Origin: Escherichia phage BUCT632
Sequence record: PQ488502.1
Reading direction: 5' to 3' (one strand)
DNA length: 64,000 bases
Shown: positions 48,159-63,533 of the stretch, piece by piece
Layout: each line of letters starts with the position of its first letter
Numbering within the stretch: position 1 is the stretch's first letter
Made by a program: the position numbers and the translations under genes
Notes under the pieces: generated by a model
The model's database searches: none
Seen by the model: only the letters and a program-made list of their open reading frames with translations
Told to the model about the DNA's origin: nothing

Positions 48159-48343
48159 TGGAAACATTACTTCTTGTATTATTAGGAGGCTCACTCCTAA
48201 TAATCCTGGGACTGATACTGATTTGCAGTCGCCTCAATACTAAGAATCTAGAGTTAACCTGTGAGAATGAAATTCTCAATAATGAACTCTTTCAATATAA
48301 CATCGCAGCCCATAAACTGTTAGACAAACTGGAGAATAAATAA
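48158..48343 (+). CDS. hypothetical membrane protein
   Basis: 61 aa, N-terminal TM helix. Confidence 0.4.
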   Translation: METLLLVLLGGSLLIILGLILICSRLNTKNLELTCENEILNNELFQYNIAAHKLLDKLENK

Positions 48344-48963
48344 TGACTTTTAATGCACAACAACCTATTCAAGTAGTACCGGATCATGAACTGAACACAT
48401 GGGATTATAGCTTTAAAGATTTAACTGCTACTGTACAATTTAAATCTATGAAGCTAACATTTGCACATAATGACCTTAGAGCATGTAAAGATCTTGAGGA
48501 TAAGCTCGAAGATGCTCGTAAGATTTTTGGCAAGGCTCGCATCCCAGCTGATAATCTAATTAACGCATTAATCGATGCAGGGTACAAACTTGTGAAGACT
48601 GAGGTGAACCGCCCTAGTACTCCAGTGACTATTAGAGATCCGTGGCAGTCAGGGACAATCTCAATGCTGAATAACTCCGATAAAAGATTAATGTCGGATA
48701 TGCACAATGTTCCTTGTGGGGGTGTGGTAAGTAGTACGCAGTCATATAAGTTTGTGGAAGATTACGGCCCTTCTGTACAGTTGAAACATACTCAAGAAGC
48801 TTTTGAATCTGATATGCGAAGCGTAGCACCTGCGGATGTTGGAGTTTCTAGGAGTTCTGTTTGTACTATTCATTTTAATAATCCTGGTCAACATGGAAGT
48901 TTAGAAGATGCTATTATGGAGGCGTTGGGAGCTGCCATTAATGAAGATAATAGGGGTAGCTAA
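48343..48963 (+). CDS. hypothetical protein
   Basis: 206 aa ORF. Confidence 0.5.
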   Translation: MTFNAQQPIQVVPDHELNTWDYSFKDLTATVQFKSMKLTFAHNDLRACKDLEDKLEDARKIFGKARIPADNLINALIDAGYKLVKTEVNRPSTPVTIRDPWQSGTISMLNNSDKRLMSDMHNVPCGGVVSSTQSYKFVEDYGPSVQLKHTQEAFESDMRSVAPADVGVSRSSVCTIHFNNPGQHGSLEDAIMEALGAAINEDNRGS

Positions 48964-49041
48964 TCCTCTAATACATGAGCCTCTACGGAGGCTCTAAAAT
49001 AAAAAGAAGGTCATCCAGACCTTAAAAATGAGAGATAAATA

Positions 49042-49926
49042 ATGTATAACTTTAAAGATAAACTAAGACAAAATGCTGGCAAAGGAAAGGCAAAGGAGAA
49101 TAATAGTGTTCCTAATGCTAAAGTACTTCCGTTTCCTGAACTAACTCAAGAAGAAAAAGATAAACTAGCATTTATGTTCGATGCACTTATAGGATTAAGT
49201 GGACGACTGTACTCCACCCTTAGTCTTAATGAGAAACGTCTAGTAGAGATGTTTTGTAAACGTTACCCAGTTACTTCAAAGGGCAATGCCCATAAAGAAG
49301 GTGAAAAAGCATTCACAGTCTTAAAAATCAGTGCATATGCACATCGTTTCTTAGTTTATGGGTTACAGATGGAATACTTCACCATTCCACCATTTAAGTC
49401 ATTTCACATTTTTGAAGATGAACGAATGAATATTGATGATCTCTATGGAGATACGTACAAATATTCAGGGAGTCCATTCCATGATGCATTAAGAAGCTAT
49501 CCTACTAGTTATTTACCAGTTAGGGCATCACAAGGTAAAGCTAGCATCTTTGCGGTATACTCAGGATCTAAAGCATCTGATCTAGAAACTTATATATTTA
49601 AAGAGCGTAAATCTGTGCTTCCAGATGAAGCATTATATAATAATCCATTGCTTCCAGAAAAAGAACCAGAGAAAATTGATGTAACCCCACCAACCCCATC
49701 TGATTCTCCTTATCTGAAGTTTGAAAATCAAGTTGGATGGGTTCTAGAAATGGGTGTAGCCTCACCGCTTGCTGCAGCATTCATCAATAGGTATCTAGAA
49801 ATTCCTGACGAGTTCCACTCACGTTATAATACGAATATTCAGATTACAGATGAATTAATAGCCATTGCAAAAGGTACACCTACTGACACTGAGGCGTATC
49901 AAAAAGCATACCAAGAGTTACTATAA
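49042..49926 (+). CDS. hypothetical protein
   Basis: 294 aa ORF, last gene before repeat region. Confidence 0.5.
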   Translation: MYNFKDKLRQNAGKGKAKENNSVPNAKVLPFPELTQEEKDKLAFMFDALIGLSGRLYSTLSLNEKRLVEMFCKRYPVTSKGNAHKEGEKAFTVLKISAYAHRFLVYGLQMEYFTIPPFKSFHIFEDERMNIDDLYGDTYKYSGSPFHDALRSYPTSYLPVRASQGKASIFAVYSGSKASDLETYIFKERKSVLPDEALYNNPLLPEKEPEKIDVTPPTPSDSPYLKFENQVGWVLEMGVASPLAAAFINRYLEIPDEFHSRYNTNIQITDELIAIAKGTPTDTEAYQKAYQELL

Positions 49927-50339
49927 GATCCTGCATGTCTCGGTGCACAATACCTGTACCGAGACTCAAATACAAACTCTCGTTGACAGATAGCTAAATG
50001 TATGTTATCATAACTCTATGAGTTAATAGAATTAACCATTTAGAGTTGCCACACAGAAGGTGTGGTGGTTCAGTAATTTAAAATTACTAACTTGTAGCGG
50101 AGGATACGGAGCGACAGGACAAGTTAATAAGTAATTTAATATAAATTGCTAGAAACATCACGAGACCTTCTGGCGGGGCAAAGCTCTATATGAGAACCCT
50201 GGGGGGATCTTATATTTAAAATAAAAGTAAAACTTTTGACCACATAATTTACATTCAAGATGATACACCGGTTGCCGCTCATCTGCTAGGATGGCACAAC
50301 ACTTTCCTAAAAACTCCAGAGTTCTCACGAAATATCACA

Positions 50340-50425
50340 CTTCTAGTGGGCGGTTCTCCTAAGTTTCTAGGAACATATACTAGGCGGTTTAATACAGGGC
50401 GGTTATTGGGAGGGCGGTTATTTCT
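50340..50425. repeat. GGGCGGTT short direct repeats (4 copies)
   Basis: GGGCGGTT recurs four times within ~80 bp. Confidence 0.6.
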
Positions 50426-50463
50426 AGAAGGCATTTTTCCAAAACACATTTCCAGAAATTACT

Positions 50464-51063
50464 GTCGGATTTGCACACTGACATAAGTTTAAAAACTGGT
50501 CGGATTTGCACAATTGCCTAAGTTTTTAGGAACATATAATCTCCTGAAAATGGCAGCATTATTTCGGGCCGAAGGCCCATGATTGCCTGAGTTTTTAGAG
50601 CCACAGAAATTTTCACTTGTCAAGCTATTTTGCCCCATTTTGCTAATAAAATTTTACTTTATCTCACCCCAAGCCCAATTAACCCAAATCTTCTCAACTC
50701 TTCCCCAAAAACGCAGCAAATCAGGCGTTGCACGCCACCAATGCTGCTCCTCTCGCAGTTCCCCCTATTTTCTCTCGCTCTCTCATCTTATCCCCAAACC
50801 CACACAATCACACACCCTCTCATCGAAGTCACAAAAATCTTGTCGGATTCGCACATCTTAATCCTAGAAAAACCGTGTCGGATTTGCACATACCCCACAG
50901 GATTCGAACGCAGTTCGAGATTGCTGGAGTTTTTGGGAGACAGATTCGTCACTCTCACGAATTTATAAATTTTTCGGGTCGGATTTGCACACTACCAAAA
51001 ATTGTCGGATTTGCACATACACGCCCGCACGTAACACCCGTGGAGCAATGTCGGATTTGCACA
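50464..51063. repeat. dispersed 14-bp direct repeat GTCGGATTTGCACA (7 copies, one GTCGGATTCGCACA variant)
   Basis: copies at 50464, 50499, 50842, 50877, 50978, 51004, 51050. Confidence 0.85.
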
Positions 51064-51089
51064 AAAGCGCAGGGCAATTGCCCTGCGCT
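51064..51089. repeat. perfect palindrome GCGCAGGGCAATTGCCCTGCGC
   Basis: 22-bp perfect inverted repeat seen directly. Confidence 0.8.
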
Positions 51090-51300
51090 AAATGAGAATA
51101 AAAATAAGAATCATTCTCATTTAAAAAGCGGAATGAGAATGATAATAATTCGCATTTAGAAAGTGAAACGATTCTCACTTAGAAAGTGGAATGATTCTCA
51201 TTTAAAAAACGGAATGAAAATTATTCAGGAAGTGAAACGATTCTCATTTAGAAAGTGGAATGCGAATGATAATGATTCGCATTTAAGAATGGAAGTGAGA
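51090..51300. repeat. iteron-like tandem/inverted repeat array
   Basis: recurring AGAAAGTG(A/G)AA(C/T)G, TCATTTAAAAA(G/A)CGGAATGA and ATTCGCATTTA/AATGCGAAT units. Confidence 0.7.
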
Positions 51301-51316
51301 AACACTGCTATTTAAG

Positions 51317-51430
51317 TTATCCACAGACTTATCAACAGCACGATTTGACTTGACAAAATCCTAGCCATTTTGAAGCGTTATTAACAGACTTATCCACAGC
51401 TTATCCTACTGTATAAATATACAGTATTCC
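51317..51430. promoter_or_regulatory. DnaA-box cluster with palindrome (left copy)
   Basis: TTATCCACA at 51317 and 51390; palindrome TACTGTATAAATATACAGTA. Confidence 0.6.
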
Positions 51431-51569
51431 TATGCAGTGAATAATTCTAATATACCGCTAAAACGCTCTCAAAGATTGGAGGAGGCTTGAAAATTAGTTA
51501 GCCCGCTAACGATCACACAAGGCGACACGTAACACCCTAATCATTAGCAGGCTAACCATCGCGGGCGCT

Positions 51570-51592
51570 GTCAAATAAGAATGATTCTTATT
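51570..51592. repeat. perfect palindrome CAAATAAGAATGATTCTTATTTG
   Basis: 23-bp inverted repeat. Confidence 0.7.
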
Positions 51593-51744
51593 TGAGAATT
51601 GGGGGCACTTCCTGATAGTTGCGCCCCGTGATTATTATAGTAGTGGGCAATCGTTACGCTTTGCCCACTCCCGCCACTCATCTTGATGCCTAGACTTGCG
51701 ACGGCGTACTAAAAACCGTTTGTACCAGTGATTAAACCATCGTT

Positions 51745-51948
51745 TCATAAATCTTCCTCCGGTAGTCGATGCGTGATTTTTTCCTCTTCCCCGTAGGAAT
51801 CCACTAAATACTGATAATAACCATCGTGATCATAAATCACTTTATCATACTCGCCACGCTCGACCGCTTGTCTATTTTCCGGCGTATCGGGCACGTAAAA
51901 AACATCAACCATTGTGCTAGTTTTGGTCACAACAATTTTATTGCTCAT
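51745..51948 (-). CDS. hypothetical protein
   Basis: 67 aa ORF. Confidence 0.45.
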   Translation of the reverse strand: MSNKIVVTKTSTMVDVFYVPDTPENRQAVERGEYDKVIYDHDGYYQYLVDSYGEEEKITHRLPEEDL

Positions 51949-52000
51949 AATAACGCTCCGTTACTATATAATCTCGTTGCAATACACCAAAATTATATAG

Positions 52001-52216
52001 TTACTCATATTCTAGCTCGAAAATATCCTCACCATATAATTTGATTAAATCAACTAAATAAAACGCTGTGCCAGTATTATTATTTCTCCTTATAAATCTA
52101 TGATTCGCGTCTTTAAATACAGTGAATACATCACCTGTTTTACCTACTCCCCATAAATCCTGTGTTAATTTTACCCGTTTAACCTTTAGCAACATATTCC
52201 AAGTAATTTCATTCAT
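52001..52216 (-). CDS. hypothetical protein
   Basis: 71 aa ORF. Confidence 0.45.
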   Translation of the reverse strand: MNEITWNMLLKVKRVKLTQDLWGVGKTGDVFTVFKDANHRFIRRNNNTGTAFYLVDLIKLYGEDIFELEYE

Positions 52217-52572
52217 TGCGCCACCTTTCGAAACGCTGTTTCAATACTATCCGCAGTGGATTGAATATATGCGCCTTTCATTATCAGGCGCTCGGTGCAT
52301 ACTTTGCGGAAAATATTAATAAAATCATCTTCATTTTCTGCAATTAATGCTTCCCCCATAACTTGAACGTCACAAGATGCAAAGGTCAAAAATTGAAACG
52401 CTAGTTCACGGGCAACGACCGCATTGATTTTATAATGCGCCTTGCCCTCATAAATATTAATAACGCCCTTATAAGCTGGGGAAAGCTGATTTAAGTAGTT
52501 TGCTAGTAATGCCGGACGGCAATTAGCAACAAAACGATTACCTTCATAAATAACCATTTGACAACCTCCCAA
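52213..52572 (-). CDS. hypothetical protein
   Basis: 119 aa ORF, overlap with downstream gene. Confidence 0.5.
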   Translation of the reverse strand: MGGCQMVIYEGNRFVANCRPALLANYLNQLSPAYKGVINIYEGKAHYKINAVVARELAFQFLTFASCDVQVMGEALIAENEDDFINIFRKVCTERLIMKGAYIQSTADSIETAFRKVAQ

Positions 52573-52680
52573 TTATATAGCCGGATAATAACATAAAGAT
52601 CCCCAATGAAAGGGGATCATTCTTAAATAGGGTGGCTGTAAAACCGCCAACCATTGCAAGGATAATAACAATAACGCTTT

Positions 52681-52893
52681 TCATAGCACCCCACGAAACG
52701 CAGCGTAAAAGGTGGCAAAATGTTTAACCGTTTCAGCGATCACGTTGCCGCGCTTATCAAATTTCTTTTCTGTAACACGAAAAGCGTTTTTATTACGTGC
52801 TACATATTCGATTTTACAATCTTCCCGCTCGAACGTGTTAACATCCACCAGCTTAAATCCTTTCGAACGTGCAAGAGAAACGTTACGGATCAT
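52681..52893 (-). CDS. hypothetical protein
   Basis: 70 aa basic ORF. Confidence 0.45.
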   Translation of the reverse strand: MIRNVSLARSKGFKLVDVNTFEREDCKIEYVARNKNAFRVTEKKFDKRGNVIAETVKHFATFYAAFRGVL

Positions 52894-53091
52894 TTTTATT
52901 CTCCTTTACTAGTCATGCAGCCCAGCAGATAAGAAAACGCAGCAATGCCAGCGCCAATAATAACGGCGTGAACGCCAAAAGCTATTGCAAATAACGATAA
53001 AATAGCGCCCAAGATACCCGCCAGAATAGCTCGAAAAATAATCATTTTTATTCTCCTAGTCAGTGGGGGATATAATATCCCCCGTTACTAA

Positions 53092-53322
53092 TTACATTAA
53101 AACAATTTTTGCGGCTTGTTTTTTAGTGCAATGTTCAGCTTTCAGGGTATCCAGCAAAAAGCCCGCCGTTTGCTGATCGATTTTATCGGCGTTGTATAGT
53201 TCTTGGATGGTGTTATAAGTTTTAGCAATGCCGAACTCCTGCACCATTTCATGAATAACAACGCGATTGGACACCCAACCTTGAGCGGTAAACAGATGAG
53301 TAGCAGAAGAGTAAGCAACCAT
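53092..53322 (-). CDS. hypothetical protein
   Basis: 76 aa ORF. Confidence 0.45.
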   Translation of the reverse strand: MVAYSSATHLFTAQGWVSNRVVIHEMVQEFGIAKTYNTIQELYNADKIDQQTAGFLLDTLKAEHCTKKQAAKIVLM

Positions 53323-53426
53323 TTTAAGCCTCCAAATTTTTGGGAAATTTTCAATCCACCGTTTTGGTGTAAAGGCATTATAACAAAAAAGGCCACCATA
53401 AAAGGCGACCTTTACAAAACTTTACA

Positions 53427-53921
53427 TTAGACTACTTGTAAGGATTCAACATTGAAACATCGTTTCAATTCGTCATGCAAAACAGCGTATTCCTCCCATC
53501 GGGTACTATCAGGAATATAAACAAGCTGTTTTAATCGATTTGCGTATATTACCGCTTTGTTATCGACTATCTCGACGCCGCCATATTTAATAATTAATTT
53601 CATGACGGAATTAATAGGATCGCCGCCGTTTACATATGTGCCGGATTTACTTAGCTGATAATGATAAAGGCTTGCATATACGTTTTCATTTTCATACCAT
53701 TCGCCAGTTTCTTCGTCTTCATAGCCATCACTACCAAAACGAGAAGCATTATCAACAGCCATTTCCTGAGCAAAAGCGTCCAGATCCGTACCAGCAGGAA
53801 CAAAGTATTCCTCGGTGTTCCCTTCCCCGCAATAGCCAGTATGACAATCGACTAAAATGATCATATCATGTTTAGCCGTGCTTACTTCCCCTAGCGAGAA
53901 GCCGTATTTTTCCTCAGCCAT
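53427..53921 (-). CDS. hypothetical acidic protein
   Basis: 164 aa ORF. Confidence 0.5.
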   Translation of the reverse strand: MAEEKYGFSLGEVSTAKHDMIILVDCHTGYCGEGNTEEYFVPAGTDLDAFAQEMAVDNASRFGSDGYEDEETGEWYENENVYASLYHYQLSKSGTYVNGGDPINSVMKLIIKYGGVEIVDNKAVIYANRLKQLVYIPDSTRWEEYAVLHDELKRCFNVESLQVV

Positions 53922-53986
53922 TTATTAGCCTCCTATTAATTAACAAGGGAATAGTAAAGTGGGGAAATAATCCCCACTAAATATTA

Positions 53987-54997
53987 TTACTCGATTTCGG
54001 TGCTAGTGGTAAAAGTAGAAATATCAATACCTTTCACCATTTCATCAATCATTTCAGCGATGTTAAAACTTTGCACCATTTCCAGCATTGCCGCTTCCAT
54101 AGCCGCCCCCGCTACCGCTTTCGCCTTTTGGTTACTCGGTGCGTACTGGTCAACCGCCACACTCAGCAGGTTAGCAATCACTACTCGACCGATCGGCGTA
54201 TCAATATAACCTTTAATCATAAACGGTGCTTTTTTAGCCGCTACTTTCGTAATTTGAGTCAGTGCAATTTTACCCGCTTCCAGTTTTGCAGCATTTACAA
54301 CAGCGGATTTATTAGCGGCAACGATGTTAGCAATCTTGGTCATGGTGTTTTTTCCTTTGTTTTCAGTAGTTTGAGTATTAACGCTTTGAGTGTTAGAATT
54401 TACAGCATGGTTTTCTACGCTGTCAATAATCTGATCTTCATCTTTCCAGAAAGAAAAACCAGCGCTTTCTATATCCCCATCATAAATATACGGGTATAAC
54501 TCCCGTGGTAACAAAAAATTACCATCGCCATCAAAAGCCATTATACCAGTATATTGAGATCCGTCGTTATCCGGCTTATGCCATCCAGCGGGTAAATACT
54601 TCCAGATAACATCTAAAAATCCCTCAATGCTAGAAAGTCCATTTATCAGATCAAGCCCAATAAGCTCGAAACCATTTATATTAAATGATTGACGGCCTGA
54701 ATTGCTATGATACGCAACAATATTATTACCCTGCGTAATAATAAAATCGGCATCCGGCCCCGCTCCCCTGCCTGTAAAGATATGGCAATCCCGATTATAT
54801 AAAACTAGCGTTGCCCCTTGTTTATATAACGGCAAAAAACCATCCATATCATAAGCGTCATAATCATCAAAAAAGTTTTGATGAATAGTCTCAATCTTGT
54901 TAATAAAATGTTTAATGCTGGTTGACTTGCTACCGTCCAGCAGGTTGCGCAATGCACCCTTTAATACGGTGGCATTATCAGGTTTATACAGCCTCAT
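53987..54997 (-). CDS. hypothetical protein
   Basis: 336 aa ORF, largest gene of minus-strand cassette. Confidence 0.55.
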   Translation of the reverse strand: MRLYKPDNATVLKGALRNLLDGSKSTSIKHFINKIETIHQNFFDDYDAYDMDGFLPLYKQGATLVLYNRDCHIFTGRGAGPDADFIITQGNNIVAYHSNSGRQSFNINGFELIGLDLINGLSSIEGFLDVIWKYLPAGWHKPDNDGSQYTGIMAFDGDGNFLLPRELYPYIYDGDIESAGFSFWKDEDQIIDSVENHAVNSNTQSVNTQTTENKGKNTMTKIANIVAANKSAVVNAAKLEAGKIALTQITKVAAKKAPFMIKGYIDTPIGRVVIANLLSVAVDQYAPSNQKAKAVAGAAMEAAMLEMVQSFNIAEMIDEMVKGIDISTFTTSTEIE

Positions 54998-55261
54998 TTG
55001 TTCGGCCTCCTCGTTAATCGGTGAGTGAATGATATAGATATTTGTTCACTAGGGGCAAGAAAAAAGAAAATGTTTTTTATTCCTTGCCTAGCGCCTATTT
55101 TTATGCTAACCGCGCAGCGGTGTAATAAAGAGCAAAAAACGGCGAAGCCACCAGGCCGCAGCATTGAGGCTTTACTTTACTATTACCTTGCAGCGTTTAG
55201 CTCGTTAGAATGCGATTTAGGCCGCTTAAAATTGATTGCAGTTGTTAACACTACCTTTTTA

Positions 55262-55375
55262 CCCTGTATATTTATACAGTGGAATAACCTGTGGATAAGT
55301 CTGTGCAAAAGTCCTTATATCGCCGCCTATCGTGTCAAGTTATTTCGTGCTGTGGATAACGTTGTGGATAACTTA
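55262..55375. promoter_or_regulatory. DnaA-box cluster with palindrome (right, inverted copy)
   Basis: palindrome CTGTATATTTATACAG; TGTGGATAA at 55290, 55351, 55364; ~45 bp is the reverse complement of 51386-51430 at ~90% identity. Confidence 0.6.
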
Positions 55376-55622
55376 AATGATAGTGGTTCTCACTTAGGCC
55401 GATAGTTTCTTATAGTTATTATTTCTCATTAATTTATAAGTATATTATATATTATGAAATAGTTAGTTGGCTAATGAGATTTTTCGTGATTAATAGTCTG
55501 CTAATAGTTTACTCTGTTACAGTCCACCAGCATGATTATCATCCTAGCAATTATTATCCTGCTATCTTTCCGATACATACTAGCAAACAAAAGTCAATTA
55601 ATTTATTTCATAAAATAAGTAG

Positions 55623-55657
55623 TTATCCACTGGAAAATAAAAGTCAAGTGGATAACT
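55623..55657. promoter_or_regulatory. convergent DnaA-box pair
   Basis: TTATCCAC (55623) and GTGGATAAC (55649) in inverted orientation. Confidence 0.5.
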
Positions 55658-56102
55658 AGGAAAATTTCATTTTTGCTTTTGGGGATAAGTTATCAACAAG
55701 GCTAGAATGCGCCTAAAACGCCCTAGAACGCGATGAAGTTTTTAGCCATCCCATCATAAGGGGATAGGCCGTTTATCGCTGCCACGAGCTTTTTGGATTT
55801 TGTCAAGTAGGGCAAAGCAAATATAAATGAAAAAATTACTTGCCTATCTGCTTTATTTTGTGGTATTCGCGCGCCCGTTTCTTTTAATTTTAGGCCATCG
55901 CCGCACGGTGTCCGGTGAGTTTTGTCTTTACGTTTCTTTACAAAAATAAGGTTGCGCCATTTTCGGGAATCCCCTATTATTTATCACGTAGGGCGGCAAT
56001 GACGAACTACACGGCGGGAAGTTTACCGCCACGCTCTTTAAAAATTGGGTACATCTTAAAGCCTATCGGCGGTAAACTTATACATTATAAGGAATCGACG
56101 AT

Positions 56103-56306
56103 ATGAAACAAACGCTTTTGATCACTGGCAAGCCTATTAAGGCACTAGATAGCAAAACAAAAAATTTGTTGACAGTAGCTCAAAGATCAGTAAAATATAG
56201 ATTCACGCAGTACAAGAAAGGCCGCCAGCAAGGTTTAGAAATGATCTGGCGCAATATTATGATTGACCTGAAGGAAAATCATAAAAAATTGCAAAAAATT
56301 GTTTGA
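56103..56306 (+). CDS. hypothetical basic protein
   Basis: 67 aa ORF. Confidence 0.4.
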   Translation: MKQTLLITGKPIKALDSKTKNLLTVAQRSVKYRFTQYKKGRQQGLEMIWRNIMIDLKENHKKLQKIV

Positions 56307-56535
56307 CACCCTAGCCGATAGGCTTTAAGATGTACTCAGTTCGATAAGAGCGATAACTTGATAAAATTTGACGGTCGGTGCTTACCATAATGCATCCCGC
56401 CCCCTAACGGGATATAGCGGCCTACGTGGAGTTCTTTAAATTGATTATAGCGGCGGGAGGATTGTTACTTATTACCTGCTAGTATTTTCTAGTAGGTAAT
56501 GCGGAACAATCCCCAAATAACTAGGAGTTTATACT

Positions 56536-56787
56536 ATGCAAAACGTTATTACCGCGCCGAAAGTTGGTCAATCCGTCTTCATTCCTTTCGTTACTAAAAC
56601 GGATGAATTAACCGGAAAAGCCGAACGTATTAAAGGTGCGGCGCTTATGCCGTTCGATACAATCGACGCGGTATATGCTGAAAATGAACGCAGTAACAAC
56701 GGCAAGCCGATTTATAACGTTCGCGTTAAATCCGGCGACGTTGTAAAGGTTGTTCAACGCAACGAAAAATGGGAAGCTGTATTGTAA
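56536..56787 (+). CDS. hypothetical protein
   Basis: 83 aa ORF with RBS AGGAG. Confidence 0.5.
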   Translation: MQNVITAPKVGQSVFIPFVTKTDELTGKAERIKGAALMPFDTIDAVYAENERSNNGKPIYNVRVKSGDVVKVVQRNEKWEAVL

Positions 56788-56888
56788 TGTAGTGTTAACT
56801 TTATATTCCCCTGAAATATGGGGAATATATGGATTAACATTTAGTTAATCATTAAATCCCTTAAATTAAACTAATAGGAGTTTTTACC

Positions 56889-57296
56889 ATGACTAACGCA
56901 AAAACCGCAAAATTCGCATGGAACGAAGAAAACACTCAGAAAGCTGTTTCTATGTATCAGCAGTTAATCAACGAAAACGGTTTAGATTTCGCAAATAGCG
57001 ACGGTTTAAAAGAGATTGCAAAAGCAGTAGGCGCGGCTTCTCCCGTATCCGTTCGGTCAAAATTGACCAGTGCAAAAGCCTATCAAAAAAGCGATAAGCC
57101 GCGTAAAGTTGGCGGCGGTAGCTCTGTGCGTAAAGCTCACTATGTGCGCGTTATCGCTAAACATGCTATCGATTCCGGCATTATCAAAGACGCCGATGAT
57201 CTGGCAAGTCTGGAAAGTGCAAAACTTGAAACGCTGGACGCAGTAGCGCAATTGTTAGGCGTTGCTGATGAAGTAAAACAAGCCGCAGGCGAATAA
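56889..57296 (+). CDS. hypothetical protein
   Basis: 135 aa ORF followed by hairpin. Confidence 0.5.
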   Translation: MTNAKTAKFAWNEENTQKAVSMYQQLINENGLDFANSDGLKEIAKAVGAASPVSVRSKLTSAKAYQKSDKPRKVGGGSSVRKAHYVRVIAKHAIDSGIIKDADDLASLESAKLETLDAVAQLLGVADEVKQAAGE

Positions 57297-57386
57297 TAGT
57301 TATACCTTGCCCCCTTCTAGTGAGGGGGCAATAATATAACTGTTTAGCGATAGTTATTTTCTTCCCTTAAATCAGGAGTTTTAAAA

Positions 57387-57584
57387 ATGATTTTCTTCCC
57401 TACTGAATCTTTGATTCTAGGCTTGTTTATTATGGCGGCCTCATTATTGTTCGCTTATTTTCAAAATGATTTAGATTCGTATTATTTTAAACGTAAATCT
57501 AAGTTAGCAAAACGTTTAGGTCTGCTTTGTTTTATCGCTGCCGTTGCTTGTGGTGTTAGTTCTAGCCTAGTGCCTTTAAATTAA
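57387..57584 (+). CDS. hypothetical membrane protein
   Basis: 65 aa, two hydrophobic segments. Confidence 0.45.
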   Translation: MIFFPTESLILGLFIMAASLLFAYFQNDLDSYYFKRKSKLAKRLGLLCFIAAVACGVSSSLVPLN

Positions 57585-57674
57585 TGTTGCAAATTATAAC
57601 GCCTATTATTTGAGGCGTTATATTTGGCAATATTGCCATTATTAATCTAATCCCTTTAATGGAGTTTTATTACT

Positions 57675-59345
57675 ATGATTATTTCCGCAGAAAAACAAAC
57701 CGTTATCCTGAAAATGGCCGCTGACTTTAATTTCTATGGTAAACGTCTGCGCGCTACTAAACTGGAGGTCTGCGACGATATATCAAAAGCAGTCTACGAT
57801 ACAACGAAACATTCTACCGCCATTTGTGATTGGCTGGAAGCAAACAAACCAGCTAAACCGAAAGCGGCAAAAGTAGCAAAAGCCATTAAAAACGACGAGC
57901 GCCCCGAAGCGGCTGGGATTGTTTCTAGTACGGTTGAGCAATGGGAAGTAAAACAGGGTAAACGTTTTATTATTACGTCGATTCAGAATAATACTTTCCC
58001 GCATAAAAACTTTTTAGCAAGTCTGGAAAAATTCGCTGAATATATCGGTGCCGATTTGCTTGTTTCTAAGTATATTTATAATAAAAACGGCTTCCAAAAT
58101 GGAGAAGGTGCAGACGGAATCAAATATGATTCTGCGTTTGATAAATATATTTGCAGCAAAAACGTGTTTTTAAATAACCGCCGTTTTGCTTTCATGGCTG
58201 AAATTAATGTTTTGCCTACCGCAGATTATCCGCTTTCTGGATTCGCAGAAACTGCAACGGCTTTAAATATTGAAGGTCTGGCAATTGGTCACGCTAAAAT
58301 TACCGCTGAAAGCGTACCAGCTTTAAAAGGTGAAGTAGTGCGCCGTATGTACTCAACCGGAACGGCAACCCTCAAAAACTACATTCAGCAGAAAGCAGGA
58401 CAAAAGGCCGAGGCGCTGCATAACTTCGGTGCGCTGATTGTTGAGTTCGACGAGGACGGGGAATTTTTTGTTCGCCAGCTTGAAACGATGGACGAAAGCG
58501 GGGTATTTTATGATCTGAATGTGTGCGCTACTCCTGCCGGATGCTATGAGACATCGGGGCATGTTTTAGGCTTGCAGTATGGTGATATTCATGCAGAAAA
58601 ACTAGATGAGGCTTGCGCTCAAGCGTCTTGGGGTCATGGTGATACTTATGGGCTTGTGGATATTCTCAAACCGAAATATCAGTTTGTACATGATGTGCAT
58701 GATTTTACATCCCGCAATCATCATAACCGCGCTTCTGGTGTATTCCTAGCGAAACAGTACGCCGCCGGACGTGATAAGGTTATTGATGATCTTATCGATA
58801 CGGGGCGCGTGCTGGAATCAATGGAGCGTGATTTTTCTCAAACAATCATTGTTGAATCAAATCACGATTTGGCGTTATCCCGTTGGCTGGATGATCGAAA
58901 TGCTAACATCAAAGACGATCCAGCAAACGCCGAACTATATCACAGCCTAAACGCTGCAATCTATGCGGCTATTGCAAAGCAGGACGATACTTTCAACGTG
59001 CTAGATTATGCCTTGCGTAAGGTAGCAGGTTGTGAATTTAACGCCATTTTCCTGACCACTGACCAATCATTTAAAATTGCAGGCATTGAATGCGGCGTAC
59101 ACGGTCACAACGGCATTAACGGCAGCCGTGGCAACCCGAAACAATTTAAGAAATTGGGCAAGTTAAACACGGGGCATACGCATACCGCCAGCATTTACGG
59201 TGGCGTTTATACCGCTGGCGTTGCTGGTAGTCTGGATATGGGTTACAACGTTGGCGCGTCAAGCTGGACGCAAACGCATTTAATTACATACGCCAACGGC
59301 CAGCGCACTTTGATTGACTTTAAAAACGGCAAGTTTTTCGCATAA
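57675..59345 (+). CDS. A1: A1-like pre-early protein with metallophosphatase-like motifs
   Basis: 556 aa, same length as T5 A1 (from memory); motifs GDIHAE, GHGD, GHNG, GHTH. Confidence 0.55.
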   Translation: MIISAEKQTVILKMAADFNFYGKRLRATKLEVCDDISKAVYDTTKHSTAICDWLEANKPAKPKAAKVAKAIKNDERPEAAGIVSSTVEQWEVKQGKRFIITSIQNNTFPHKNFLASLEKFAEYIGADLLVSKYIYNKNGFQNGEGADGIKYDSAFDKYICSKNVFLNNRRFAFMAEINVLPTADYPLSGFAETATALNIEGLAIGHAKITAESVPALKGEVVRRMYSTGTATLKNYIQQKAGQKAEALHNFGALIVEFDEDGEFFVRQLETMDESGVFYDLNVCATPAGCYETSGHVLGLQYGDIHAEKLDEACAQASWGHGDTYGLVDILKPKYQFVHDVHDFTSRNHHNRASGVFLAKQYAAGRDKVIDDLIDTGRVLESMERDFSQTIIVESNHDLALSRWLDDRNANIKDDPANAELYHSLNAAIYAAIAKQDDTFNVLDYALRKVAGCEFNAIFLTTDQSFKIAGIECGVHGHNGINGSRGNPKQFKKLGKLNTGHTHTASIYGGVYTAGVAGSLDMGYNVGASSWTQTHLITYANGQRTLIDFKNGKFFA

Positions 59346-59356
59346 TTAAATTTATA

Positions 59357-59385
59357 AGCTGGAAATATTTCCAGCTTATACCCTT
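59357..59385 (+). terminator. putative terminator hairpin
   Basis: AGCTGGAAA-TAT-TTCCAGCT hairpin, weak T tail. Confidence 0.4.
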
Positions 59386-59410
59386 ATTAAATTAATTGGA
59401 GTTTATAACT

Positions 59411-59803
59411 ATGAAAAAGCAAAATATCCCATTCGATCGCGCTCAATCCTCAATCGTTCTGGTTTATTCTAATGGTGAACGTTACCACGTCGAGGCGGGG
59501 CACGTTGTTGATGATTTAATCGAGTTTAACGAGGCGTTACAGATCACGACTTTCGCCTATACGCAAGGCCGCGCAAGTAGTCACATCAAGGCCGCTGGCG
59601 TTTATGTTGACACGGTGAAACAAGAAACGATTATCATCGACGCCGTAAAATCCGGCCTAGCCTTTGCAGTTGTCGCGCCTTGCCCCGCTTGCCTAGATGA
59701 TCAGCTAACGAGTGCAAAGGTATATACCTGCGCGGGTATTCGTTCCAGTGTATCAGGTGAGGATGTTAGTTTTATCGCTGATGCGTTGGCTTATGGTCTT
59801 TAA
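59411..59803 (+). CDS. A2: A2-like pre-early protein
   Basis: ~130 aa ORF downstream of A1-like gene; assignment by size and synteny only. Confidence 0.4.
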   Translation: MKKQNIPFDRAQSSIVLVYSNGERYHVEAGHVVDDLIEFNEALQITTFAYTQGRASSHIKAAGVYVDTVKQETIIIDAVKSGLAFAVVAPCPACLDDQLTSAKVYTCAGIRSSVSGEDVSFIADALAYGL

Positions 59804-59882
59804 TAGTTAATTTATTATTACCCGCTTATAAATAGCGGGTAATGCTGAATTAATCTAATCCCTTAAATGGAGAACGTAACAA

Positions 59883-60617
59883 ATGAATAAAGCTATTATG
59901 AATATTTCCCGCAGCTTCCCGCATATTTCCCGCGTCATGATTTGGGATTTAGACGGCACTATCATTAATTCTTTCCATCGTGTAGCGCCTTGCTTTGATA
60001 GTGAGGGCAATTTAGATTTAAATAAGTATAAAAATGAAGCGTGTAAACATCATTTAATAATGCAGGATTCTTTATTGCCATTGGTTGAATACATGCGCCA
60101 ATGTATGAATGACGCAAATACTTTAAATATTATTTGTACCGCTCGACTAATGAGCAAGTCGGACTATTATTATTTGCGTAAACAAGGTCTGCGCGGTCGT
60201 GGTAATAGTAATATCCGCGTGTTTTCCCGCGATACACTGCATAAATATTTTAAAGCTGATAAGGTTAGCGAGATATACCACAGCAAAGACGCAGTTTATA
60301 AATCTTATTATTTTGAATTATTTAAACAGCTATATCCGAACGCTGATTTTACGATGATTGATGATCATAAAGGCGTATTATCAGCGGCGGCATCATACGG
60401 ATTTAAAACGCTGGACGCGCAAGCCGTTAACGATATTCTATCAATCGGGGTGGCATTGATAGGTGAAACCTTTATCGATGAATCGCTCGATGATGATAAT
60501 GATTATCAGTTCCTAGCCGATCGTTTGAAATTATGTTGGGAAGGTATGACCGAGGAAGAACGCGCAGAATATAGTTGCAGCCCGCAACAATACATGGAGA
60601 AATTAAAAGTTGCATAA
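59883..60617 (+). CDS. dmp: 5'-deoxyribonucleotidase-like HAD-family protein
   Basis: 244 aa; HAD motif I WDLDGTI; size and position next to A1/A2 candidates. Confidence 0.55.
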   Translation: MNKAIMNISRSFPHISRVMIWDLDGTIINSFHRVAPCFDSEGNLDLNKYKNEACKHHLIMQDSLLPLVEYMRQCMNDANTLNIICTARLMSKSDYYYLRKQGLRGRGNSNIRVFSRDTLHKYFKADKVSEIYHSKDAVYKSYYFELFKQLYPNADFTMIDDHKGVLSAAASYGFKTLDAQAVNDILSIGVALIGETFIDESLDDDNDYQFLADRLKLCWEGMTEEERAEYSCSPQQYMEKLKVA

Positions 60618-60768
60618 TAATTAAAGTTGAAATAGTCACGGTGTGTAACGATAACATGCCGTGACTATTAGCTTGCTAAGTACCGGGCGGTAATGAGACT
60701 TATTCTCATCTCGGGGGGCACTGGACACACCTCCATGTGTAATCTTATGAAATTTGGCAAAAGTCAAA

Positions 60769-61775: not shown

Positions 61776-63533
61776 ATGGGTTTTTTCGCTGGAAAATATA
61801 GCGATGGTAAGACCGTACTATCTTTAAATACTGAATCTGGTGGTGACATTAATCGTCACTATAGTCCAAATGCCAATAGTATTTTTCATAGTGATATGCC
61901 ATTTGTCCTAGTTGATGGTACTTATGAGTCTGGGTTAGGTGATGCCGGTAATGGGTTTTTTGTATGTCAGATGCCCTCTGACATAATAAATATTAAATCC
62001 AATGACCCCGGTAGAGTTATATTAACTGCTATTGAGATTAATGGTACTCACAGAGCTTTTCTTAATGGTACTCAGAGTAAGGTGGGTCAAACTATAGTTG
62101 CCACTCAAGCAGATCCTTTTAGATCTTTTGCTAGTGTTTCCCAGACTAGTGGATTTGCATTTGGTAATAGCCTGGCATCTGGTACATATAACTATAATCC
62201 ATCTATAGGACATGAAGAATCTATTTCTAGGAATGGTACAGGGGGTACTACCTTACATAGTACGTATCATGGTATAGTTAGGCCAGGTGCAGGAGCTCCA
62301 GTAGGTATTACTGTTGCAGAAGCTTTTGCACAGTTAGGATTCCCTACTAATAGTAGTACAGTACCTATAGATAGTAATAACCAATATTACTGGGACCCAG
62401 GATGGATGTCTCCTTTAGGATCAGCACACAGAGGGCACGATTGGTTTTATGTTTGTAACTCTAACATACGTGGGTATGGTGGGGTAAGACAAGGTCTTCC
62501 TGGTAATGTAAATACTATGTATCATGATGGGGGTAATAGATTTGTTTGTAGAGGTTCTACAACTAATTTAGCTAATCAATCTGGTAACGCTACAATATTA
62601 CAGGATTGGTATAACATAACCCCTACTAAAGTTATTTGGTACGTTTTGAATTTAAGATACTCAAATGGTAATATGGGTATTTCTGGTAATCCTTTTACTG
62701 GCTCAGATATTCTTATCTCTCCCTCTAATTTTACTATAAAAGGGGTTAGTTTACCGAATACTGGGTATAAGTTTATCAACCAAAATGCTTTTGGTAACTT
62801 AGGTTATAGACCAGATATGGAATATATTGGAAATAACGCAGCGTACACCGGGGCCTTTGGGGATACCACTGCAAGATGTGAACTTGTAGGTTCTAGTAAC
62901 GGGAGTTTATGGTCTCCTGTAGACTATGGAGGGGCTAAGTCTCAAATTAGTATTTACAAATTCGGAGCTGGTAAGCAATGGTATGTAAATTCTAATGATA
63001 ATACTATCGGTAATGAACACGGGGTTGTTTGGGGGCCTTCAGCAGTTCCACTACGACTTTTTAGCGGAAATGTTGGTAGTTCTTACATGGGGGATGATAT
63101 TACTCCCAGCTATCCAGGAACTGGAGATAGATACGTTGGTTTATCAACTATTGGGCTAGGTATACCGGGTGGCAATGCTACTGTAATTCTTACCACTGAA
63201 GTTATATCAGGTAATCTTAACTGTGCAGGTGTTCCTGCTAATACATGGAATAACGGTGTGTTTCAAGTGCAGGGAAGAAGAGCATATAGTTATAGTAATG
63301 GAGACGCGATATTCCACCAGATTTTAACACTACCAGTAGGGTATTTAGTACCTTTTCATACTACATCTGCTTTTAGATACACACCTAACAATGCCCTAAG
63401 TAGAAATAGTTTTATATACACTGCTAAAAATCTGGGGAACGGAAATGTAGAGTTAGGGGTAGTTATGCACGTAAGTTTAGGTAGTGCAGTTTTTCTACCT
63501 AGATTAAGAGTAACAGTTCAACGCCTTACCTAA
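61776..63533 (+). CDS. putative receptor-binding tail protein (pb5-like)
   Basis: 585 aa Gly/Asn/Ser/Thr-rich protein divergent from Llp-like gene; assignment by context. Confidence 0.45.

What the first reader, a model, noticed from the sequence alone, without database searches (positions are those of the whole stretch)
49930..51700. Gene-free repeat region: 14-mer repeated 7 times, palindromes, iteron-like array and DnaA boxes (candidate origin or injection-stop locus)
About 1.8 kb lacks credible ORFs and has distinct composition. It contains GGGCGGTT x4, the 14-mer GTCGGATTTGCACA x7 at irregular spacing, a perfect 22-bp palindrome (51064-51089), an iteron-like array (51090-51300), DnaA boxes TTATCCACA (51317, 51390) and a 23-bp palindrome (51570-51592). 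In T5 the end of the first-step-transfer DNA is described (from memory) as repeat- and DnaA-box-rich; the 14-mer may be a binding site for an unidentified protein.
Basis: partly seen in the sequence, partly recalled or inferred. Interest (0 to 1): 0.7.

Follow-up and report, generated by a model that had tools for sequence, protein, structure and literature searches.

The report
Phage T5 injection-stop and terminal-repeat junction
This gene-free repeat region is the already described "injection stop signal" and terminal-repeat boundary of a T5-like phage, so the finding is real but known; looking closely also turned up a near-perfect LexA site and a probable small RNA gene that the accessible literature does not mention.

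Summary
The window comes from a T5-like phage (Demerecviridae), read in reverse relative to T5. Window 49930-51700 is homologous to T5 9157-10936. That stretch is T5's annotated injection stop signal (iss, "Repeat Region 3"), the major 7.9 % nick, the inner end of the ~10-kb terminal repeat, and about 670 bp of adjacent unique DNA.

- The 14-mer is repeat DRD.
- The iteron-like array is DRE.
- The DnaA boxes belong to IRD'-spacer-IRC'.
- The palindrome carries the nick motif Pu|GCGC.

The architecture recurs in 548 phage records. The origin reading is not supported. The injection-stop reading is supported by homology, but how the stop works was still called poorly understood in 2026 papers.

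- The repeat/unique junction maps to 50597|50598, between DRD copies.
- A 19/20 match to the LexA consensus lies beside the DnaA boxes and is kept in 16 of 18 phages.
- Each DRD contains an 8/9 DnaA-box-like core.
- A candidate ~200-nt structured RNA with a strong promoter lies at 49983-50217.
- A conserved 37-aa ORF overlaps the right edge.

Verdict: already known locus, modest interest.

The parts
49937..49965 (+). Hairpin directly after the stop codon of the T5.018 homologue (gene at 49042-49926 +). It is a possible end of the early transcription unit but has no U-run.
   Evidence: I23; identical in T5.
49983..50011 (+). Sigma-70 promoter-like site, TTGACA-17-TATCAT with a TG extension. It points toward the terminal repeat.
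   Evidence: 11 of 12 matches plus TG, the best site in 49000-52500. Conservation is 98-99 % in 10 related loci. An equivalent TTGACA/TTGCAT-17-TGTTATAAT sits at the same place in other T5-likes.
50018..50217 (+). Candidate ~200-nt structured RNA: a small 5' hairpin, a long imperfect hairpin (50041-50188) and a 3' hairpin (50189-50214) followed by UUU.
   Evidence: Minimum free energy -66 kcal/mol, z = -6.7 on the + strand, against -50.6 on the - strand. 99.8 % of cells are paired. Three pairs carry compensatory double changes and all one-sided changes keep G.U pairs; the slid controls show 0-1. No Rfam match.
50254..50306 (.). 53-nt core of unknown function. It is kept at 96-100 % even in phages whose upstream RNA body has a different sequence.
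50349..50419 (+). GGCGGTT x4 (three of them as GGGCGGTT).
   Evidence: Kept in BF23, chee24, S114 and the Klebsiella phage.
50464..50512 (+). Two DRD 14-mers 35 bp apart, lying outside the terminal repeat.
50565..50577 (.). GGGCC-GAA-GGCCC hairpin, 20 bp outside the repeat boundary.
   Evidence: Read from the sequence. Near-identical in T5 and BF23.
50597..50598 (.). Inner boundary of the long terminal repeat, which is the right physical end of the virion DNA: ...GCCTGAGTTTTTA|GAGCCACAG... The repeat runs from 50598 to 60727.
   Evidence: The record ends of T5, HASG4 and NBEco002 map here. So does the BF23 repeat end determined with PhageTerm. The outer end maps to 60727|60728.
50640..50835 (+). 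C-rich spacer (74 C against 16 G). Its sequence is poorly conserved and carries indels.
50842..51063 (+). Five DRD 14-mers inside the repeat. The last copy ends 3 nt before the nick motif. Each contains ATTYGCACA, an 8/9 match to the DnaA consensus TTWTNCACA.
51066..51089 (.). Perfect 24-bp palindrome carrying the T5 nick motif Pu|GCGCAGGG. The predicted nick is at 51066|51067 on the + strand. Read on the - strand, the hairpin is followed by TTTTGTG, which looks like a terminator.
   Evidence: The T5 7.9 % nick maps here and shares the motif with the other T5 nicks. The stem is kept with variable loops, and fp01 shows a compensatory change.
51089..51305 (.). AT-rich DRE / iteron-like array: 23-nt units plus two 55-nt repeats. 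It includes Fur-box-like sites at 51135-51153 (15/19) and 51262-51280 (14/19).
51317..51398 (+). Homologue of IRD'-spacer-IRC': two co-oriented pairs of DnaA boxes, each pair 3 bp apart (51317/51329 and 51378/51390).
51407..51426 (.). TACTGTATAAATATACAGTA, a 19/20 match to the LexA (SOS box) consensus.
   Evidence: 0.02 expected at up to 3 mismatches. An intact CTGT-N8-ACAG is kept in 16 of 18 phages.
51571..51595 (.). 25-bp palindrome related to the DRE unit. It lies in a variable segment that about half of the relatives lack.
   Evidence: I15, I3; 53-60 % gaps.
51635..51748 (-). Conserved 37-aa ORF, the last gene of the pre-early operon. It overlaps the stop codon of the T5.017 homologue (51745-51948 -).
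   Evidence: It is intact, with synonymous changes, in 5 sequence variants. HASG4 and NBEco002 annotate it. It is not annotated in T5.
55264..55394 (-). Inverted partner element (the IRC-spacer-IRD of Repeat Region 2): four DnaA boxes on the - strand and a second CTGT-N8-ACAG at 55264-55279.

Best explanation
**What it is.** This is the T5-family 'Repeat Region 3'. It is the non-coding inner end of the ~10-kb terminal repeat together with the adjoining unique DNA. It is a composite of cis-acting DNA signals, not one element.

**Shown here by homology and sequence:**
1. The repeat/unique junction, where the right genome end is cut, lies at 50597|50598.
2. The site of T5's major 7.9 % nick (Pu|GCGC) lies in the palindromic hairpin at 51066-51089.
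3. Toward the pre-early genes from the nick lies the block annotated in T5 as the injection stop signal. It holds AT-rich DRE iterons, four co-oriented DnaA boxes and a consensus LexA box. A second, inverted copy of the DnaA/LexA block lies 3.9 kb further into the repeat.
4. Seven co-oriented DRD 14-mers run from the nick outward across the junction.

**Inferred mechanism:**
- *The stop.* The left genome end enters the cell until the operator-like block reaches the inner membrane or cytoplasm. Host DNA-binding proteins then capture it. Davison proposed membrane-associated DnaA for this role. I add LexA, and possibly Fur, as candidates. The DNA stalls with the nick/hairpin just outside the cell, which is where shearing breaks it.
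- *Restart.* Transfer resumes only after the pre-early proteins A1 and A2 are made.
- *The DRD array.* At the pause the DRD array, the GGCGGTT repeats and the junction are still outside the cytoplasm. I therefore assign them to another step: recognition by a phage protein when concatemers are cut and the repeat is regenerated at packaging.
- *The hairpin.* It probably also terminates pre-early transcription.

**How sure.** Identity of the locus: about 0.95. Host-protein capture as the cause of the stop: about 0.35. A packaging role for the DRD array and junction: about 0.4.
For: **Homology to T5**
- The stretch aligns along its whole length with T5 9157-10936, with 84 % mean column identity.
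- NC_005859 annotates the iss, the end of the left terminal repeat and the major nick in that stretch.

**Spread among phages**
- Segment 50420-51480 matches 548 phage records. In 392 of them one match covers at least 80 % of the segment. The hits examined are Demerecviridae.
- One record labels its copy 'similar to DNA injection stop signal'.

**Published anatomy**
- Davison's description of Repeat Region 3 matches part for part: DRD x9, DRE, and IRD'-spacer-IRC' with DnaA boxes paired 3 bp apart and an inverted partner.

**Junction**
- The ends of four full-length records, one determined independently with PhageTerm, map to the same nucleotide.
- The window holds one collapsed repeat copy joined to the T5 right-end genes.

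**Nick**
- The motif is identical to that at the other annotated T5 nicks.
- The hairpin stem is kept while its loop varies, and fp01 carries a compensatory G>A/C>T change.

**DRD repeats**
- Each of 18 phages has 7-10 copies on one strand and none on the other. The layout is kept in Klebsiella T5-likes that are only ~74 % identical.

**Host-protein sites**
- All five exact TTATCCACA in 64 kb lie in the two inverted elements.
- The LexA match is 19/20 against 0.02 expected, and it is conserved.
Against: - **No experiment bears on this phage.** The stop function is inferred from T5.
- **Even in T5 the iss is defined loosely.** It rests on position relative to the shear point and on conservation. 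Papers from 2023-2026 still say that its exact position is undetermined for most phages and that the mechanism is poorly understood.
- **No binding has been tested.** DnaA, LexA and Fur binding are all unverified. The Fur similarity is weak (14-15 of 19) and sits in AT-rich repeats.
- **The LexA box overlaps no conserved promoter.** The only nearby promoter-like site, at 51472-51444 (-), has a -35 element that T5-type relatives lack.
- **A capture model has a logical gap.** Cytoplasmic proteins can only act on DNA that has already entered the cell.
- **The packaging role for the DRD array rests on position only.** No DRD copy lies near the other repeat end at 60727.
- **Some records place the repeat end elsewhere.** chee24 and Kenya-K20 annotate different ends. 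I attribute this to annotation choices but could not check it against reads.
Confidence: 0.85

Rival explanations
1. It is a replication origin, of the oriC or iteron-plasmid type. DnaA would bind its boxes, the 23-bp iterons would bind an initiator, and the AT-rich array would melt.
For: The form fits. There are four DnaA boxes, about five 23-nt direct repeats with two-helical-turn periodicity, and GC of only 0.32 in the array.
Against: - Davison reports that electron microscopy placed T5 origins near the centre of the genome. He also notes that the replication genes are not expressed while only this DNA is in the cell.
- The two flanking proteins and the intergenic ORFs that were searched match no initiator family.
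- The element has an inverted second copy among the pre-early genes.
- The GC-skew turn here is explained by convergent gene orientation.
Confidence: 0.04
2. The whole region is mainly a packaging and concatemer-processing signal. Terminase recognises the repeats, cuts at 50597|50598, nicks, and regenerates the terminal repeat. On this view the injection pause is a side effect of the nick or hairpin, not of a dedicated stop signal.
For: - The junction lies inside the repeat field. Sequence within about 50 bp on either side is close to 98 % identical across the relatives that cover it (88 % raw, with one truncated locus counted as gaps).
- DRD copies lie on both sides of the cut and all face the same way.
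- From my own knowledge: phage lambda's cosB site and the short-repeat arrays at the T7 concatemer junction sit beside their cut sites in the same way. The right end should be packaged first if the left end is ejected first.
Against: - The most conserved blocks (DnaA/LexA inverted repeat and DRE) lie 500-800 bp from the cut. They also have a partner copy 4.7 kb from it, which a cut-site signal does not need.
- No DRD lies at the other repeat end.
- GGCGGTW near that other end is only a weak match.
Confidence: 0.25
3. It is chiefly a transcription buffer between two converging units: the pre-early operon on the - strand and the early genes on the + strand. The hairpins would act as terminators, and the repeats would be incidental or would act as roadblocks for RNA polymerase.
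For: - Genes converge on the region from both sides.
- T5 annotates a terminator just after the pre-early genes.
- On the - strand the nick hairpin is followed by TTTTGTG.
- A hairpin follows the stop codon of the T5.018 homologue.
Against: - Termination does not need 1.8 kb, 7 co-oriented 14-mers, or consensus DnaA and LexA sites kept across genera.
- The consensus scan found no terminator-like site inside the region.
Confidence: 0.1
4. The region encodes proteins that were missed. Several database records annotate 5-9 'hypothetical proteins' across it.
For: - Mechanical ORFs of 92-143 aa lie on the + strand at 50583-51159.
- Some phage records carry CDS annotations there.
Against: - These ORFs start at TTG and match no PHROG or Pfam family.
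- Indels of 10, 10, 1 and 3 nt relative to T5 break their frames.
- The curated T5 and BF23 records leave the region unannotated.
- Only the 37-aa ORF at the right edge behaves like a gene.
Confidence: 0.02

Closest known systems
Bacteriophage T5 injection stop signal / Repeat Region 3 (left terminal repeat, about 9.2-10.4 kb). Sources: Heusterspreute et al. 1987 and Wang et al. 2005, as cited; Davison 2020, bioRxiv 10.1101/866236.
   Same: It is homologous along its full length. It has the same order of parts: pre-early genes, DnaA-box inverted repeat, DRE repeats, palindrome with the 7.9 % nick motif, DRD array, repeat end, GGCGGTT repeats. It has the same inverted partner element among the pre-early genes.
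   Different: - 7 DRD copies here against 9 in T5.
- An extra 23-nt unit in the DRE array.
- The nick hairpin is a perfect palindrome here, so the nick motif occurs on both strands; in T5 it occurs on one strand only.
- About 100 bp at 51470-51570 are replaced relative to T5.
- All four DnaA boxes of the iss block are present; T5 has three by the criterion.
Terminase recognition regions beside genome-end cut sites: phage lambda cosB R-sites and the T7 short-repeat arrays flanking the terminal repeat (my own knowledge, not tested here).
   Same: An array of short, co-oriented repeats lies next to the nucleotide where the packaged genome ends. The flanks of the cut are highly conserved.
   Different: - No terminase binding has been shown.
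- The repeats are spread over 600 bp on both sides of the cut.
- No copy lies at the other repeat end.
DnaA-box plus iteron replication origins (E. coli oriC and iteron plasmids).
   Same: Clustered, co-oriented DnaA boxes lie next to an AT-rich array with about 23-bp periodicity.
   Different: - No adjacent initiator gene was found.
- T5 origins are reported elsewhere.
- An inverted duplicate exists.
- The block sits in DNA that enters the cell before any replication gene.
LexA operators (SOS boxes) of Gammaproteobacteria, consensus TACTGTATATATATACAGTA (my own knowledge).
   Same: 19 of 20 positions match. CTGT-N8-ACAG is intact with an AT-only spacer. This is closer to the consensus than the classical chromosomal sites I can recall, such as those of recA and sulA.
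   Different: It does not overlap a conserved promoter. It lies inside a larger inverted repeat shared with DnaA boxes. Binding has not been tested.

Membership tests
T5-family injection stop signal / Repeat Region 3 | It lies at the inner end of the long terminal repeat, downstream of the pre-early genes of a T5-like genome. | tested here: met
   Gene order and homology to T5. The repeat is mapped to 50598-60727.
T5-family injection stop signal / Repeat Region 3 | Sequence homology to the annotated T5 iss (9140-10149). | tested here: met
   Alignment A1, 84 % mean column identity. 457 and 548 related records.
T5-family injection stop signal / Repeat Region 3 | An IRD'-spacer-IRC' element with DnaA boxes in pairs 3 bp apart, and an inverted partner (IRC-spacer-IRD) further inside the repeat. 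| tested here: met
   Boxes at 51317/51329 and 51378/51390. The partner has four boxes at 55290-55371 on the - strand.
T5-family injection stop signal / Repeat Region 3 | DRE repeats and a series of DRD repeats. | tested here: met
T5-family injection stop signal / Repeat Region 3 | A major single-strand interruption at the Pu|GCGC motif at about 7.9 % of the genome. | tested here: inconclusive
   The motif and its context are identical to the T5 nick site. The nick itself cannot be seen in a sequence.
T5-family injection stop signal / Repeat Region 3 | Acts in cis to halt DNA transfer after about 8 % of the genome, until A1 and A2 are made. | not testable with these tools
   It needs infection and shear experiments. 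DNA homologous to the T5 stretch that carries A1 and A2 lies at window 55593-59352. The genes themselves were not checked.
DnaA-dependent / iteron replication origin | Clustered DnaA boxes with an adjacent AT-rich repeat array. | tested here: met
DnaA-dependent / iteron replication origin | A cognate initiator gene next to the iterons, or mapped initiation of replication at the site. | tested here: not met
   The two flanking proteins and the intergenic ORFs searched match no initiator family. T5 origins are reported near the genome centre.
LexA operator (SOS box) | CTGT-N8-ACAG palindrome with an AT-rich spacer and TA flanks. | tested here: met
   51407-51426, 19/20. Conserved in 16 of 18 phages.
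LexA operator (SOS box) | Overlaps or adjoins a promoter that it represses, and binds LexA. | tested here: inconclusive
   The only nearby promoter-like site (51472-51444, -) lacks a conserved -35 element in T5-type relatives. Binding is not testable here.
Terminase recognition site at a terminal-repeat boundary | Lies next to the nucleotide at which packaged genomes end. | tested here: met
   Four record ends map to 50597|50598.
Terminase recognition site at a terminal-repeat boundary | The repeats are bound by the terminase small subunit and are required for cutting. | not testable with these tools
   No data.
Any curated RNA family (Rfam 15), for the candidate RNA at 50018-50217 | A match to a covariance model. 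| tested here: not met
   No match at E <= 1 in 49000-52500.

The most novel reading that the evidence does not exclude
Two things in this 'known' locus may be undescribed.

1. **The stop signal may be a cluster of operators for several host proteins.** It holds four DnaA boxes, a consensus LexA box and Fur-like boxes. Each DRD repeat adds a DnaA-box-like core. All of these sites except the palindromic LexA box face the same way. If host proteins bind them, two-step DNA entry depends on, or senses, host regulators.

2. **T5-like phages may carry an unannotated early gene for a ~200-nt hairpin RNA just outside the repeat.**
   - Kept across phages: the promoter, the leader, the base of the hairpin and the 3' end.
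   - Swapped between phages: the distal part of the hairpin, which occurs in at least six sequence types.
   - This pattern would fit a specificity or decoy RNA.
Probability: 0.3. Interest if true: 0.6.

Novelty: already known. Interest (0 to 1): 0.3.

Why it matters
**The main finding is a rediscovery.** The finding itself therefore adds nothing new.

**The mechanism is still an open question.** Two-step DNA entry was described by Lanni in 1968. Papers from 2026 still call the mechanism poorly understood.

**The session's additions can be tested directly:**
- A conserved consensus LexA site beside the DnaA boxes names a second host protein to test by gel shift, ChIP, or infection of lexA hosts.
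- The exact placement of the repeat junction and of the nick relative to the DRD array shows that the 14-mers are still outside the cell at the pause. That points to a virion or packaging role for them.
- A strongly structured, promoter-equipped RNA next to the repeat would be a new gene in a model phage.

Tried and rejected
- **Rfam.** Searching 49000-52500 at E <= 1 gave no match.
- **Similarity to E. coli.** The RNA region has no match in 5,426 E. coli genomes.
- **Covariance model across RNA types.** A model built from the T5-type RNA (R1) found only the window itself. Even with filters off it gave no significant match at the equivalent positions in BF23, chee24, S114, Kpn13-P2 or L032. 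The RNA types are therefore positional counterparts. They share a promoter, a leader and a 3' end, but homology along their whole length is not shown.
- **ORFs in the C-rich tract.** Rejected as genes.
- **A LexA-controlled promoter at 51472-51444 (-).** Its -35 element is not conserved.
- **Promoters in the 53-nt core.** None is convincing. TGGCAC-N5-TTTCC resembles a sigma-54 site only in part.
- **G-quadruplex in the C-rich tract.** No motif with loops of 12 nt or less.
- **Fur boxes.** The matches (14-15 of 19) exceed shuffles of the array. The array is AT-rich and repetitive, and better matches lie in coding DNA at 60489, so this stays a weak lead.
- **GGCGGTW as a motif shared by both repeat ends.** There are 15 in the window against about 7 expected, and one at 60686. 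This is too weak to use.
- **A shared cut-site motif at the two ends.** Only GTGG-N3 is shared, which could be chance.
- **Other annotated repeat ends.** chee24, Kenya-K20, and the record ends of rutana and KKP_3822 map to different points. I treat these as annotation or assembly choices.
- **Literature.** Davison 2015 and Heusterspreute 1987 could not be read. Whether they mention the LexA-like palindrome or the RNA is therefore unknown. Searches pairing T5 with LexA or with small RNA found nothing relevant.
Full report
**1. What the window is**

The 1.77-kb stretch matches 457 phage records, almost all T5-like Salmonella and Escherichia phages. It aligns along its whole length, in reverse orientation, with T5 (NC_005859) positions about 9157-10936, at 84 % mean column identity.

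In the T5 record that interval holds:
- the misc_feature 'injection stop signal (iss)' at 9140-10149;
- the end of the left terminal repeat at 10219;
- a 'major DNA single-chain interruption' at 9748/9749;
- the unannotated gap up to gene T5.018.

The + strand gene that ends at 49926 is the T5.018 homologue. The - strand gene at 51745-51948 is the T5.017 homologue.

Wider mapping shows that the window carries one collapsed copy of the terminal repeat. On one side it joins the early genes. On the other side it joins the T5 right-end genes, up to the terminase small subunit at 63496-64000.

**2. Check of the observation**

Every listed feature exists.
- The 14-mer occurs 6 times exactly and once with one mismatch, always on the + strand. 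The whole window has 8 matches at up to 2 mismatches against 0.29 expected.
- GGGCGGTT occurs 3 times in the region, not 4. The common unit is GGCGGTT x4.
- The iteron-like array is real: period 23, 4.8 copies, plus two 55-nt repeats.
Each has a near-box 3 bp away.
- Composition is distinct, with GC skew about -0.4 at 50500-50950.

The claim of no credible ORFs holds for 49927-51634.
- The TTG-started ORFs in the C-rich tract match no family.
- Their frames are broken by indels relative to T5.
- The finding's right edge overlaps a 37-aa ORF (51635-51748, -). That ORF is intact, with synonymous changes, in five variants and is annotated in two relatives.

**3. It is a described locus**

Davison's preprint (10.1101/866236) describes T5 'Repeat Region 3' (9194-10409) as containing:
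- IRD'-spacer-IRC' with DnaA boxes in pairs separated by 3 bp;
- two DRE repeats;
- nine DRD repeats and many palindromes;
- an inverted partner, IRC-spacer-IRD, in Repeat Region 2.

He reports this structure conserved in 25 T5-like phages.

All of it is present here, including the partner element with four DnaA boxes at 55290-55371 on the - strand.

Segment 50420-51480 matches 548 phage records, 392 of them over at least 80 % of its length. One record labels its copy as similar to the T5 injection stop signal.

[quoted passage not shown] They say its exact position is undetermined for most phages and its mechanism is poorly understood.

**4. Finer anatomy established here**

(a) *Repeat junction.*
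- The last bases of the T5, HASG4 and NBEco002 records map to window 50598-50600.
- BF23's repeat end was determined by its authors with PhageTerm. It falls at the homologous nucleotide...GCCTGAGTTTTTA|GA....
- The outer end of the repeat maps to 60727|60728, which gives a repeat of 10,130 bp.
- Two DRD copies and the GGCGGTT repeats therefore lie in unique DNA. Five DRD copies lie inside the repeat.

(b) *Nick.*
- The T5 7.9 % nick reads AAAA|GCGCAGGG on the nicked strand.
- It shares Pu|GCGC(A/G)GG with the three other annotated nicks. The record notes give the consensus as NPu|GCGCN.
- The window has the identical context, which predicts a nick at 51066|51067 on the + strand, 3 nt after the last DRD.
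- The hairpin stem is conserved while its loop varies from 2 to 13 nt. Phage fp01 has a compensatory change, GCGCAGAGCAATTGCTCTGCGC.
- On the - strand the hairpin is followed by TTTTGTG, so it could also terminate the pre-early operon. This is read from the sequence; the scan did not list it.

(c) *DRD repeats.*
- Each of 18 phages has 7-10 copies on one strand and none on the other.
- The layout is the same throughout: a pair 35 bp apart, a gap of about 340 bp, then a proximal cluster ending at the nick.
- This holds even in Klebsiella T5-likes that match only in pieces at about 74 % identity.
- Each copy contains ATTYGCACA, an 8/9 match to the DnaA consensus TTWTNCACA, in the same orientation as the four boxes. 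By my estimate a random 14-mer would contain such a match with probability about 0.01.

(d) *LexA-like box.*
- TACTGTATAAATATACAGTA at 51407-51426 matches the SOS-box consensus at 19 of 20 positions, against 0.02 expected at up to 3 mismatches.
- CTGT-N8-ACAG is intact in 16 of 18 phages. fp01 and S114 each carry one substitution in a half-site.
- A second CTGT-N8-ACAG sits beside the partner DnaA cluster at 55264-55279.
- Davison's preprint never mentions LexA or SOS. No searchable paper links T5 to a LexA box. The 1987 and 2015 papers could not be read.

(e) *Fur-like boxes.*
- The DRE units contain GAGAATGATAATAATTCGC (15/19 to the Fur box consensus) and GCGAATGATAATGATTCGC (14/19).
- The motif CGAATGATAATGATTCG persists in the Klebsiella phage.
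- This is a weak lead in AT-rich repeats.

**5. The left 300 bp are not repeats but look like an RNA gene**

*Conservation and promoter.* Positions 49943-50292 are the most conserved part of the locus, at 93-99 % identity in 10 related loci. The adjacent gene is 75-95 % identical. The best promoter-like site of the region, TTGACA-17-TATCAT with a TG extension at 49983-50011, points toward the repeat.

*Predicted structure.* The downstream 205 nt fold into a small hairpin, a ~150-nt imperfect hairpin and a 3' hairpin followed by UUU. The energy is -66 kcal/mol (z = -6.7) on the + strand, against -50.6 on the - strand.

*Covariation in 15 relatives.*
- 99.8 % of cells are paired.
- Three pairs carry compensatory double changes.
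- Every one-sided change keeps a G.U pair, which would be an A.C mismatch on the other strand.
- The slid controls show 0-1 such pairs.

*Caveat.* The variation falls into essentially two haplotypes, so there are few independent events.

*Where conservation ends.* It collapses right after the 3' hairpin. It resumes in a 53-nt core (50254-50306) that is kept even in phages with a different upstream sequence.

*Other sequence types.* Only 139 of 437 records carry this exact module. BF23, S114, chee24, OSYSP-, DT571/2- and FFH1-like contigs, L032 and Klebsiella phage Kpn13-P2 have something comparable at the same position:
- a TTGACA/TTGCAT-17-TGTTATAAT promoter;
- a shared leader, AATCTCATAGATTAA;
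- a small hairpin;
- a long hairpin of different sequence (z about -4.4 to -6.6 in all but Kpn13-P2, which scores -1.5);
- a GGGGG(A/U)CU 3' hairpin, which in BF23 is a clear terminator.

*Negative results.* A covariance model of the T5 type does not detect the other types. Homology beyond the ends is therefore not shown. Nothing matches in Rfam or in E. coli genomes, and I found no paper describing such an RNA.

**6. How it most likely works**

Shown: the identity and arrangement of the parts.

Inferred:
- DNA enters left end first and pauses at about 8 %.
- Shearing then breaks the DNA near 7.9 %, which is the nick.
- So at the pause the nick and everything beyond it (DRD array, junction, RNA gene) is still in the phage or in the cell envelope.
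- The DRE array, the DnaA boxes and the LexA box are at or just inside the cell.

This geometry favours two assignments.
- The operator-like block is the part that host proteins could capture. That is Davison's membrane-DnaA model, to which I add LexA and possibly Fur.
- The DRD, GGCGGTT and junction part serves a different step. The most likely one is recognition by a phage protein when concatemers are cut at 50597|50598 and the repeat is regenerated.

From my own knowledge, and not tested here: phage lambda's cosB site and the T7 junction repeats are comparable arrays beside cut sites. T5 DNA transfer is reported to need no metabolic energy, which argues against a T7-like entry driven by transcription and limited by a terminator.

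None of these functional assignments is proven.

**7. Rivals**
- *Replication origin.* The form fits, but T5 origins are reported elsewhere, no initiator gene was found, and an inverted duplicate exists.
- *Purely a packaging signal.* It explains the junction-proximal part. It does not explain the distant, duplicated DnaA/LexA block.
- *Transcription buffer.* Plausible for the hairpins, but it does not explain the conserved arrays.
- *Coding region.* Rejected, except for the 37-aa ORF.

**8. Verdict**

The injection-stop interpretation is right by homology, and the origin alternative is not. The locus is already known, so its interest as a discovery is low. The additions that make the old question more testable are the junction and nick coordinates, the DRD geometry, the LexA box, the DnaA-like core of DRD and the candidate RNA gene. 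The RNA and the LexA box deserve experimental follow-up.

Noticed in passing
window 49983-50217 (+): A strong promoter is followed by a candidate ~200-nt structured RNA (long hairpin; z = -6.7; three compensatory pairs; G.U pairs only on the + strand). It is unannotated in T5 and absent from Rfam. Other T5-like phages have the same promoter, leader and 3' end at this position, with a different hairpin body in at least six sequence types.
   Followed up: partly
window 51407-51426 and 55264-55279: A near-consensus LexA (SOS) box, TACTGTATAAATATACAGTA (19/20), lies 8 bp from the DnaA boxes and is kept in 16 of 18 T5-like phages. A second CTGT-N8-ACAG lies beside the inverted partner element. It is not mentioned in Davison 2020 or in any searchable paper.
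   Followed up: partly
window 50254-50306: A 53-nt core (AAGATGATACACCGGTTGCCGCTCATCTGCTAGGATGGCACAACACTTTCC) is kept at 96-100 % even in phages whose neighbouring sequence differs. It contains TGGCAC-N5-TTTCC and a small hairpin. Its function is unknown.
   Followed up: partly
window 51635-51748 (-): A conserved 37-aa basic, Trp-rich ORF (MKRWFNHWYKRFLVRRRKSRHQDEWREWAKRNDCPLL) overlaps the stop codon of the T5.017 homologue. It is annotated in HASG4 and NBEco002 but not in the T5 reference record.
   Followed up: partly
window 51066-51089: In this phage (and in S131, NR01 and fp01) the nick hairpin is a perfect palindrome. The nick motif Pu|GCGCAGGG (GCGCAGAG in fp01) therefore occurs on both strands, 22 bp apart. 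In T5 and BF23-like phages it occurs on one strand only. Whether the second strand is nicked is unknown.
   Followed up: no
window 48693-48706 (inside the T5.019 homologue, 48343-48963 +): An extra DRD-like 14-mer (GTCGGATATGCACA; exact GTCGGATTTGCACA in T5) is kept at the same position inside a coding gene, 1.8 kb from the array.
   Followed up: no
window 51135-51153, 51262-51280; also 60489-60513: Fur-box-like sequences (14-15 of 19) lie in the DRE units, and the motif persists in a Klebsiella T5-like phage. The best matches in the window (16-17 of 19) lie at 60489-60513, in DNA homologous to the T5 stretch that includes the dmp gene, and are probably coincidental.
   Followed up: partly
L002 (Kenya-K20) 5139; L020 (chee24) 1886; ends of L041 (rutana) and L042 (KKP_3822); start of L019 (bastian): Annotated terminal-repeat ends and record ends of several T5-like GenBank entries fall at different points of this repeat field: after a DRD copy, in the C-rich tract, or inside the DRE array. 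They do not fall at the T5/BF23 junction. This suggests that repeats or nicks mislead assembly or end-calling.
   Followed up: partly
window 20864-32781: 22 tRNA genes lie on the + strand, the usual T5-family tRNA cluster.
   Followed up: no
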